Origin: a virus
Taxonomy: Duplodnaviria; Heunggongvirae; Uroviricota; Caudoviricetes
DNA length: 13,555 nt
IMG/VR virus record: IMGVR_UViG_3300026224_000027
Coordinates: 1-13,555 of that record
Direction: 5' to 3' (one strand)
This document shows, in pieces, positions 9,125 through 9,312 of this stretch. The translations under genes and the position numbers were made by a program. The notes beneath the pieces were generated by a model. That model was not told where the DNA came from and ran no database searches. It was given only the letters and a program-made list of their open reading frames with translations. Within the stretch, counting starts at the first letter, position 1; each line of letters begins with the position of its first letter.

Positions 9125-9312
9125 TATCAGATCCTCTTTTCAGTCCTCCAGCCTCAAAAAACTGACCACACAACTGACCACACATTTCGCTGAAGCTCGG
9201 CAAACAACAACGAACAGCAACAAACAAGAAAGCCAATTAAATCATTGTATATCAAACAAATACACAAACAATCACGAACACTCCCGAACTACAAAAAACA
9301 CTAAATGAGAAA

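What the first reader, a model, noticed from the sequence alone, without database searches (positions are those of the whole stretch)
9150..9300. Strand-biased A+C-rich tract with tandem ACTGACCACACA repeats in the int-proximal island end
The plus strand between int and the junction is almost entirely A and C, and contains an exact 12-bp tandem duplication (9161-9172 and 9173-9184). This location is where integrase arm-type sites and the int promoter are expected. The C-rich, G-poor plus-strand character is also rut-like for any antisense transcript.
Basis: seen in the sequence. Interest (0 to 1): 0.35.

Follow-up and report, generated by a model that had tools for sequence, protein, structure and literature searches.

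The report
Integrase arm sites of a phage satellite
The A+C-rich stretch with the 12-base tandem repeat is the integrase-side arm of a known E. coli phage satellite's attachment site, and the repeat is most likely where the integrase's N-terminal domain docks: an ordinary kind of element, but one with a strikingly conserved layout across the whole integrase family.

Summary
ACTGACCACACA is exactly duplicated at 9161-9184, and 9150-9300 is 77% A+C, the window's extreme.

The tract lies between int (7904-9124, minus strand) and the 14-bp att core ATACGGGTATTTCT (9313-9326). The island is a PICI of the published EcCI224 type, inserted between thiM and rcnR.

- The same doublet, inside a 70-nt module, sits at the other island end in direct orientation in all 76 E. 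coli genomes that carry the tract.
- Period-12 doublets lie just upstream of int in 43 of 45 family loci, against 4% of random windows.
- Their sequence follows the clade of the Int N-terminal arm-binding domain, not AlpA.
- In the reconstructed attP the two doublets are 232-234 bp apart, or one helical turn more or less.

I read the doublet as a pair of arm-type Int sites. The 10-bp-phased CRAACA repeats that fill the rest of the tract are probably accessory sites. The strand bias follows from all sites pointing the same way.

No int promoter, RNA structure or evidence of rut function was found.

In passing: the att core lies inside the thiM TPP riboswitch aptamer, which integration splits.

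This is a new member of a known kind, of modest interest.

The parts
9161..9184 (.). Tandem 12-bp doublet ACTGACCACACA x2 (TGTGTGGTCAGT x2 on the int-sense strand). Proposed pair of arm-type Int binding sites on the P arm.
   Evidence: Exact duplication. Invariant in diverged islands at this site. A second copy lies at the far island end. Homologous period-12 doublets lie upstream of int across the family and track the Int N-domain clade.
9158..9227 (.). 70-nt module (doublet plus first hexamer cluster) duplicated in direct orientation at the thiM-proximal island end, which lies outside the window.
   Evidence: It is the longest direct repeat of the island in SCU-123: L001 1542-1611 and 12259-12328, 87% identical. 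All 76 E. coli genomes with the tract have at least 2 places.
9201..9226 (.). Hexamer cluster I: CAAACA / CGAACA / CAAACA (TGTTYG on the int-sense strand) at exactly 10-bp spacing. Candidate accessory sites (RDF or bending protein) or phased bending sequence.
   Evidence: TRF period 10 at 9201-9227. Positions listed. Six TGTTYG in the 189-nt arm against a mean of 0.25 per 189-nt window, all in one orientation. Also present next to the far-end doublet.
9253..9290 (.). Hexamer cluster II: CAAACA, CAAACA, CGAACA, CGAACT at 12/10/10-bp spacing, next to the core.
   Evidence: TRF period 10 at 9263-9289. One unit is removed by the 10-bp deletion in L006.
9227..9252 (.). Variable A+T-rich spacer of the arm with two one-mismatch IHF-consensus matches (9235-9247, 9250-9262).
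   Evidence: Least conserved part of the arm among islands. The IHF-like matches are not enriched overall: 16 found against 18.5 expected in the window.
9313..9326 (.). att core ATACGGGTATTTCT, identical in attL, attR and the empty site.
   Evidence: Comparison of K-12 (L002), SCU-123 (L001) and the window. It is the same 14-mer that Fillol-Salom 2018 Table S1 lists for EcCI224.
9307..9328 (.). Imperfect inverted repeat GAGAAAATAC-GG-GTATTTCTC around the crossover. Candidate core-type Int sites.
   Evidence: Read directly from the sequence; not tested further.
9132..9138 (-). Shine-Dalgarno sequence AAGAGGA, 7 nt upstream of the int GTG.
   Evidence: Read from the sequence.
7904..9124 (-). int, a 406-aa tyrosine recombinase with an N-terminal arm-type DNA-binding domain.
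   Evidence: Pfam PF13356 (E 4e-17) and PF00589. PDB sequence hits 3JTZ and 3JU0. An AlphaFold model of residues 1-106 (pLDDT 80.7) matches 3JU0, 3JTZ and 3RMP with probability 1.0.
9313..9362 (-). 5' half of the host thiM TPP riboswitch aptamer (P1 5' strand, P2, P3, CUGAGA), cut off from its 3' half by the island.
   Evidence: The intact aptamer in K-12 scores 71.2 bits. Here it scores 19.7 bits, and 33.3 bits on the thiM side, against a gathering score of 54.3.
9388..9416 (-). Sigma-70-like promoter (TTTACA-17-TAACAT), presumably the host thiM promoter, now pointing into the arm and int.
   Evidence: It is the only promoter-like match in 8900-9900, and no terminator-like site lies between it and int. 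This is a consensus scan only.

Best explanation
The tract is the int-proximal (P) arm of the attachment site of a phage-inducible chromosomal island (EcCI224 type) integrated between thiM and rcnR.

The exact 12-bp doublet is a pair of arm-type sites for the N-terminal domain of the island's integrase. An identical doublet lies in the other (P') arm. The excised attP therefore carries four arm sites, two on each side of the core, all in the same orientation and 232 bp apart (about 22 helical turns). That arrangement would let an Int tetramer bridge arms and core in the recombination complex.

The rest of the tract is filled by two clusters of CRAACA hexamers spaced one helical turn apart. These are most likely sites for an accessory or directionality factor (AlpA-type or a host bending protein), or phased bending sequence.

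Because every repeat points the same way and is G+T-rich on the int-sense strand, the plus strand comes out A+C-rich. The doublet ends 36 nt before the int start, so Int bound there probably also damps int expression.

Shown: anatomy, duplication at both ends, family-wide conservation, co-variation with the Int N-domain, fixed spacing. Inferred: binding by Int, the identity of the hexamer binder, autoregulation.
For: Boundary and identity:
- The empty K-12 site compared with occupied sites gives the 14-bp core at 9313-9326.
- The same core and location are published for PICI EcCI224.

Both arms:
- The 70-nt module with the doublet is the island's longest direct repeat and sits at both ends in direct orientation.
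- All 76 E. coli genomes with the tract have at least 2 copies.
- The 12-mer is absent elsewhere in the island, including upstream of alpA.

Selection:
- The doublet and its flanks are invariant in islands whose arm centre has diverged.

Family rule:
- A period-12 doublet lies within 110 nt upstream of int in 31 of 45 loci at 11/12 or better, and in 43 of 45 at 9/12 or better.
- The matching rates in random windows are 0.35% and 4.4%.
- The loci span Enterobacterales, Vibrionaceae and Shewanella.

Co-variation:
- The motif class follows the Int N-domain clade.
- Window against L028: AlpA 89% identical and the same cargo, but Int N-domain 60% identical; the doublets differ at both island ends while the hexamers are alike.
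- L027 against L029: Int N-domain 90%, AlpA 77%; same doublet, different phased repeats.
- Lys or Arg at Int residue 36 (strand beta2 of the model) goes with ..A[G/C]T or ..AAT in 18 of 18 alignable loci.

Geometry:
- The far-end doublet is on the same strand in 6 of 6 loci.
- Reconstructed attP spacing is 232, 232, 233, 233, 234 and 234 bp, with 222 and 242 as the only deviations.
- A real attP in the packaged satellite vB_KppS-Ant shows 233 bp.

Protein:
- Int has the P4-like/HPI arm-type binding domain.

Precedents:
- RDF sites are direct repeats one helical turn apart.
- Arm sites overlapping the int promoter give autoregulation in KplE1.
Against: - No binding or recombination experiment exists.
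- The int-side doublet lies about 35 bp from the int start, so its co-variation with the N-domain could partly reflect physical linkage. The Salmonella recombinant L026 carries doublet and N-domain as one contiguous block. The far-end copies answer this in only a few loci.
- YGTTY repeats phased at about 10 bp occur family-wide whatever the AlpA type, so assigning them to AlpA is weak.
- AlpA did not affect Pint in EcCICFT073.
- No sigma-70-like promoter was found in the tract, so autoregulation is conjecture.
Confidence: 0.78

Rival explanations
1. The doublet is an operator for the island's AlpA-type regulator or excisionase, or for another island protein such as DUF6387, rather than for Int. 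It would control int transcription or excision directionality.
For: AlpA-family proteins are Xis-like winged-helix proteins that bind direct repeats. alpA is needed for excision in EcCIMP1 and EcCICFT073. The doublet sits just upstream of int.
Against: The doublet differs between the window and L028 although their AlpA proteins are 89% identical. It is the same in L027 and L029, whose AlpA proteins are 77% identical. No copy lies upstream of alpA, which AlpA auto-activates. AlpA did not change Pint activity in EcCICFT073. Doublets occur in loci that lack DUF6387. A 12-bp period is not the 10-11 bp typical of RDF arrays.
Confidence: 0.1
2. The tract acts as RNA: a G+U-rich regulatory 5' leader of int, or on the other strand a C-rich rut site that makes Rho terminate antisense transcripts.
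For: The plus strand is 28% C and 10% G and is predicted to be unstructured. The host thiM promoter could transcribe the sense strand through the arm.
Against: No Rfam family matches apart from the broken TPP aptamer. Folding z-scores are -1.41 (sense) and +0.35 (plus strand). No plus-strand promoter was found. The repeat module also sits at the far island end, where it precedes no gene. A 10-bp deletion and a 1-bp indel are tolerated. Conservation falls on the repeats and their spacing, as expected for DNA sites.
Confidence: 0.06
3. The doublet is a chance slippage duplication in low-complexity DNA with no function, or part of a small ORF (9105-9308 plus strand, 67 aa; 9018-9236 minus strand, 72 aa).
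For: Low-complexity A+C-rich DNA lacks stop codons and duplicates easily. The mechanical ORF list shows both ORFs.
Against: The doublet is identical in diverged islands and in Salmonella. It is present at both ends in 76 genomes. It is family-wide against 0.35% by chance. Indels of 1 and 10 bp break both ORFs, and RefSeq annotates nothing there.
Confidence: 0.01

Closest known systems
Arm-binding sites of phage P2 and 186 integrases
   Same: [quoted passage not shown] The P2 consensus tgTGGaCa even resembles TGTGGTCA here.
   Different: The Int family is different: here the N-domain is the P4-like/HPI four-stranded type. The repeats here are strictly tandem with a 12-bp period. The 232-bp spacing rule is not described for P2 or 186 in what I read.
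KplE1 (CPS-53) IntS/TorI module, and P4 Int/Vis
   Same: int is transcribed away from the att site, so the arm with Int and RDF sites overlaps the int upstream region. Int and the RDF then repress int (the P4 part is from my own knowledge of Piazzolla et al. 2006).
   Different: No promoter was found inside this arm. The site sequences are unrelated. No expression data exist for this island.
Lambda attP (P1, P2, P'1-P'3; Xis X1-X2; IHF)
   Same: A heterobivalent Int bridges arm and core sites. Accessory bending proteins bind direct repeats one helical turn apart.
   Different: Lambda has five arm sites with mixed orientation (own knowledge) and a three-stranded N-domain. Here there are four sites as two tandem pairs, all direct.
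[quoted passage not shown]
   Same: The Int N-domain model superposes with TM 0.64-0.72 (query) and 0.80-0.90 (target) at 34-35% identity.
   Different: Those islands target asn tRNA genes (own knowledge). Their arm-site sequences could not be read here because the paper is not held.
E. coli PICI EcCI224 (Fillol-Salom et al. 2018)
   Same: Same att core AGAAATACCCGTAT, same frmR(rcnR)-thiM location, about 10.6 kb. Strain Ecol_224 matches 96% of the window.
   Different: The paper lists only the core. It mentions neither arm repeats nor the riboswitch.

Membership tests
Arm-type binding sites of a heterobivalent tyrosine integrase | The integrase carries an N-terminal arm-binding domain | tested here: met
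   PF13356 at residues 8-94, E 4e-17. PDB hits 3JTZ and 3JU0. Foldseek probability 1.0 to 3JU0, 3JTZ and 3RMP.
Arm-type binding sites of a heterobivalent tyrosine integrase | Repeats distinct from the core sequence, located in both arms of attP | tested here: met
   Doublets start 90 bp (P') and 142 bp (P) from the core start and are unrelated to the core. The same holds in 6 other family loci and in a real attP.
Arm-type binding sites of a heterobivalent tyrosine integrase | Site sequence co-varies with the Int N-terminal domain rather than with other element proteins | tested here: met
   Caveat: the int-side doublet is physically linked to the N-domain coding region.
Arm-type binding sites of a heterobivalent tyrosine integrase | Direct binding by the Int N-domain, and requirement for recombination | not testable with these tools
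   Needs EMSA or footprinting and attP mutagenesis.
Gram-negative PICI (EcCI224 type) | int, alpA and a primase/replication module transcribed in one direction; 10-15 kb; no tail or lysis genes | tested here: met
   Pfam hits for int, AlpA and D5-type primase, all on the minus strand. The SCU-123 island is about 10.9 kb with a capsid/protease fusion and DUF1441 only.
Gram-negative PICI (EcCI224 type) | Specific att site AGAAATACCCGTAT between frmR(rcnR) and thiM | tested here: met
Gram-negative PICI (EcCI224 type) | Induction and packaging by a helper phage | not testable with these tools
   Experimental.
RDF (Xis/Apl/Cox-type) binding arrays | Direct repeats spaced about one helical turn apart in an att arm | tested here: met
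   Hexamers spaced 10, 10 and 12, 10, 10 bp; criterion.
RDF (Xis/Apl/Cox-type) binding arrays | Repeats track the cognate RDF (here AlpA) | tested here: inconclusive
   Two natural swaps agree, but similar YGTTY repeats occur with very different AlpA proteins.
Rho utilisation (rut) site | C-rich, G-poor, unstructured RNA of about 80 nt or more | tested here: met
   On the plus strand: C 28%, G 10%, MFE -11 kcal/mol over 189 nt.
Rho utilisation (rut) site | The strand is actually transcribed | tested here: inconclusive
   No plus-strand promoter-like site in 8900-9900. No expression data.
TPP riboswitch (RF00059) | Complete aptamer reaching the gathering score of 54.3 bits | tested here: not met
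   19.7 bits on the int side and 33.3 bits on the thiM side, against 71.2 bits in the empty K-12 site.

The most novel reading that the evidence does not exclude
The island uses the conserved TPP riboswitch aptamer of thiM as its attB, and integrates in the same orientation as thiMD. Integration then fuses the host thiM promoter and the first half of the aptamer to the G+U-rich int leader. Integrase would be made from a host promoter only in the integrated state. thiMD would be left without its promoter and without TPP control until excision rebuilds the riboswitch. The arm described here would then be both a recombination scaffold and the leader of a host-driven int transcript.
Probability: 0.2. 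Interest if true: 0.6.

Novelty: new member of a known kind. Interest (0 to 1): 0.35.

Why it matters
Arm-type sites are what make integrases of this class directional and controllable, yet none seem to have been mapped for the integrases of Gram-negative PICIs.

The comparative rule found here has three parts:
- a tandem 12-bp doublet a few to 60 nt upstream of int;
- a second doublet in the other arm;
- 232 bp between them, plus or minus one helical turn.

This rule gives a sequence-only way to find both ends and the attP of satellites of this integrase family. It also gives a concrete intasome geometry to test, and a candidate specificity contact (Lys/Arg 36 in strand beta2).

It further explains why the region is so strand-biased and why annotation pipelines call spurious ORFs across it.

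The side observation that the target is a riboswitch aptamer adds riboswitches to tRNA genes as conserved RNA-gene targets. It also predicts a thiamine-metabolism phenotype in lysogens.

Tried and rejected
- Rfam at gathering thresholds found nothing in the window. At permissive thresholds it found only the broken TPP aptamer. No tRNA or tmRNA is present.
- RNA folding of either strand gave no signal.
- The promoter and terminator scan found no int promoter in the arm and no promoter at the far end for thiM.
- The IHF consensus search was not enriched.
- The first genome-contig scan, with the single Int protein, returned nothing. An alignment query was needed.
- The GTTCG pair upstream of alpA looked like a possible AlpA operator matching the arm hexamers. 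It turned out to be the two arms of a terminator-like hairpin, also present with opposite sequence in L032 and L033, so it was dropped as evidence.
- Literature searches for thiM plus satellite, PICI or riboswitch plus integrase found nothing relevant.
- The JBC 2009 paper on the HPI and HAI7 arm-binding domains is not held, so their arm-site sequences could not be compared.
- Target-site duplication was rejected as the source of the end repeats. The modules are absent from the empty site and lie at different distances from the core.

Full report
**1. The observation**

The plus strand reads ACTGACCACACA at 9161-9172 and again at 9173-9184. Tandem Repeats Finder gives period 12, 2.1 copies and 100% matches. 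Region 9150-9300 is 76.8% A+C (G 9.9%, T 13.2%). This is the most extreme 151-nt window in the 13.5 kb, about 5 sd above the mean. TRF also reports two period-10 arrays, at 9201-9227 and 9263-9289. 'Almost entirely A and C' is an overstatement, but the feature is real.

**2. Where it lies**

The window is Escherichia chromosome. It holds a run of minus-strand island genes:
- DUF1441;
- a ClpP-protease/capsid fusion;
- a D5-type primase;
- DUF4222;
- AlpA;
- DUF6387;
- a 406-aa tyrosine integrase at 7904-9124.

These are followed by rcnR, rcnA, rcnB and yehAB.

I compared the empty site in K-12 with an occupied site in strain SCU-123. This gives a 14-bp identity block, ATACGGGTATTTCT, at both junctions. 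In the window it is 9313-9326. The tract is therefore exactly the island DNA between int and the core.

The island is already in the literature. Fillol-Salom et al. 2018 (PMC6092414, Table S1) list PICI EcCI224 with att AGAAATACCCGTAT at 'frmR-thiM' and a size of 10.6 kb. Strain Ecol_224 matches 96% of the window.

Seventy-six of 5426 complete E. coli genomes carry the tract, and nothing is annotated under it.

**3.

The window stops inside the island, so I used related genomes. In SCU-123 the longest direct repeat of the whole island is a 70-nt module, 87% identical between its copies. It contains the doublet and the first period-10 array, and it sits once at each end in the same orientation. 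Every one of the 76 genomes has at least two places matching the tract.

The 12-mer occurs four times in the island, two per end, and nowhere else. It is absent upstream of alpA.

Five islands at this site differ in cargo: a capsid-forming PICI-like packaging module in SMS-3-5, lambda-like capsid and decoration genes in VG35A2, and PerC in TUM9812. Across these five:
- The doublets and their immediate flanks are invariant, while the centre of the arm varies.
- One island has lost exactly 10 bp.

**4. The integrase family**

Int homologues of 74-54% identity were located on contigs. An alignment query then brought in 80 further loci from Enterobacterales, Vibrionaceae, Shewanella and beyond.

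A period-12 tandem doublet lies within 110 nt upstream of the int start in 31 of 45 loci at 11/12 identity or better, and in 43 of 45 at 9/12 or better. The matching rates in random windows from the same loci are 0.35% and 4.4%.

The unit differs by clade:

| Doublet unit | Where found |
|---|---|
| TGTGTGGTCAGT | this window and one Salmonella island at the same site |
| TGTGAGGTCAGT | another Salmonella island |
| GGTGTAGTTAAT | E. coli islands at abgR, at cspD-clpS and inside Stx phages; a Salmonella island beside a dipeptide-permease-like operon |
| GTG[TC]AGTCAGT | Enterobacter, Citrobacter, Raoultella, Buttiauxella |
| TGTATAAACA | Xenorhabdus, Proteus, Klebsiella |
| GGTGTATCA[A/C]T | Serratia, Kluyvera |
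| GGGGGTACAT | Shewanella |

**5. Which protein do the doublets follow?**

- *Clade grouping.* Motif classes coincide with clades of the Int N-terminal 100 residues.
- *Swap one.* The cspD-clpS island (L028) has the same cargo as the window and an AlpA 89% identical to it. Its Int N-domain is only 60% identical. Its doublets differ from the window's at both island ends, 10 kb apart, while the neighbouring TTGTTCG repeats are alike.
- *Swap two.* L027 and L029 share the N-domain (90%) and the doublet, but differ in AlpA (77%) and in the phased repeats.
- *One residue.* Lys or Arg at Int residue 36 goes with ..A[G/C]T or ..AAT at the end of the unit in 18 of 18 alignable loci. By my reading these cover at least three separate clades. 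In the AlphaFold model (mean pLDDT 80.7) this residue lies in strand beta2.
- *Fold.* The model matches the solved arm-type binding domains of the HAI7 and HPI integrases, and entry 3RMP on attP recognition by P4-like integrases. Probability is 1.0, TM to target 0.80-0.90 and identity 34-35% (sequence hits).
- *Caveat.* The int-side doublet is about 35 bp from the gene, so linkage alone explains part of this. The Salmonella recombinant L026 carries doublet and N-domain as one contiguous block.

**6. Geometry**

Wherever a second doublet was within reach, it was on the same strand at the far end (6 of 6).

Adding the far-doublet-to-core distance to the core-to-int-doublet distance reconstructs the spacing in the excised attP:

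| Spacing (bp) | Loci |
|---|---|
| 232 | four E. coli thiM-site islands; L028 |
| 233 | L052; L067; the real attP of the packaged satellite vB_KppS-Ant (LR881103) |
| 234 | L033; L034 |
| 222 | L006 |
| 242 | L066 |

The deviations are one helical turn. This holds although the cores and the split between the arms differ greatly, from 24+210 to 95+137. Constant distance and phase is what a fixed protein-DNA assembly would impose.

**7. The rest of the tract**

TGTTYG hexamers on the int-sense strand occur six times in the 189-nt arm, against 0.25 expected. All are in one orientation, in two clusters spaced 10-12 bp. A triplet also accompanies the far-end doublet.

Direct repeats one helical turn apart are the signature of recombination directionality factors, and AlpA-family proteins are Xis-like. 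However, similar YGTTY repeats accompany very different AlpA proteins across the family, and AlpA did not affect Pint in EcCICFT073. I leave their binder open among AlpA, a host bending protein, extra Int sites and intrinsic curvature.

IHF-consensus matches in the A+T-rich spacer are no more frequent than chance.

**8. Why the strand bias**

All repeats are G+T-rich on the int-sense strand and point the same way. The bias is a family trait. Mean G+T of the 190 nt upstream of int is 0.61 against 0.51 background. It reaches 0.6 in 24 of 45 loci but in only 2.7% of background windows.

An A+C-rich strand has few stop codons. This explains the mechanical ORF at 9105-9308 and the 'hypothetical proteins' that the annotation pipeline calls across the other junction in three genomes. 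Indels of 1 and 10 bp show the region is not coding.

**9. Promoter, RNA and rut**

No sigma-70-like promoter was found in the arm. The only match in 8900-9900 is TTTACA-17-TAACAT at 9416..9388 on the minus strand, upstream of the thiM leader. No terminator-like site lies between it and int.

Neither strand folds better than shuffled controls. The plus strand has rut-like composition, but nothing indicates that it is transcribed.

Because the doublet ends 36 nt before the GTG, Int bound there could repress int, as shown for KplE1 IntS. This is inference.

**10. Comparison with what is known**

[quoted passage not shown] In regulatory logic it is closest to KplE1 and P4. It is a new member of a known kind. 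As far as I could find, the specific sites, the 12-bp doublet rule and the 232-bp spacing are not described for PICI or P4-like integrases.

**11. Side finding: the riboswitch**

The att core lies inside the thiM TPP riboswitch aptamer. In K-12, RF00059 scores 71.2 bits at L002 3337-3433, and the core is at 3384-3397.

Integration leaves the 5' half next to int (19.7 bits) and the 3' half with the expression platform next to thiM (33.3 bits). Both are below the 54.3-bit threshold, and the island end does not rebuild the missing helices. The same core is used in Salmonella. The PICI paper does not mention the riboswitch.

Whether int is then driven by the thiM promoter, and how thiMD is expressed in lysogens, could not be tested here.

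Noticed in passing
window 9313-9362 (minus strand); L002 3337-3433: The island's att core lies inside the thiM TPP riboswitch aptamer (junction J3-2 and the 3' strand of P2). Integration splits the aptamer into two halves that both fall below the Rfam threshold, and the island end does not restore the missing helices. The published att-site table calls the site only 'frmR-thiM'.
   Followed up: partly
window 9388-9416 (minus strand): The only sigma-70-like promoter near the arm is the presumed host thiM promoter. After integration it points through the half-aptamer and the arm into int, with no terminator-like site between. thiMD on the other side has lost this promoter, and no promoter-like match was found at the far island end (L001 1300-2400).
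   Followed up: partly
window about 1485 (genes 746-1324 and 1345-2658, minus strand): The ClpP-protease/major-capsid fusion gene is split into two ORFs by a 1-nt deletion (GAATGGTTTTTC to GAATGTTTTTC) relative to the intact 637-aa gene in SCU-123. This is either a frameshifted pseudogene or a sequencing error.
   Followed up: yes
window 3189-3349; L001 6249-6464: A dense set of direct and inverted GGTGAACAGT repeats lies in the A+T-rich gap upstream of the primase gene. They look like iterons of the island's replication origin.
   Followed up: no
window about 6952-6985 (minus strand), just upstream of the alpA ATG: A hairpin GCCCTCG...CGAGGG followed by a T run ends 3 nt before the alpA start codon. 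An equivalent hairpin with a different loop is in the same place in L032 and L033. It could be a terminator gating alpA, the master activator of the island.
   Followed up: partly
L004, L005, L006 against the window; L028: The int/att module and the cargo recombine freely. The same thiM-site int and arms carry a full capsid-forming packaging module (SMS-3-5), lambda-like capsid and decoration genes (VG35A2) or a PerC regulator (TUM9812). The window's cargo also occurs with a different int, different arms and a cspD-clpS site (L028).
   Followed up: partly
L059 9700-9956; L060 9690-9947; L062 9909-9956: In Shewanella chromosomes a degenerate second doublet lies 233-234 bp upstream of the int-proximal one, with a core-like AGTTCATGCCGTA between them. 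This is an attP-like junction inside a chromosome, perhaps from tandem or remnant elements. L062 has four tandem copies of the unit.
   Followed up: no
L001 1760-1875 (minus strand), the far island end: Two terminator-like hairpins follow the last island gene. One is GGGGCGGG...CCCGCCCC followed by a T run, whose 5' arm loosely resembles lambdoid cos ends. They would insulate thiM from island transcription.
   Followed up: no
window 8900-9500 against 9125-9313: The arm itself is 100% identical to several complete E. coli genomes. The 601-nt stretch that includes the host flank is at best 96.5% identical, with the differences visible in the rcnR-proximal host DNA. The host may be a divergent Escherichia lineage carrying a recently acquired island.
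   Followed up: no
window 2865-3361 against L001 5005-6463: The SCU-123 island carries a HEPN-domain gene and a small ORF in the gap between the capsid fusion and the primase. The window's gap is about 950 bp shorter and has no such ORF.
   Followed up: no
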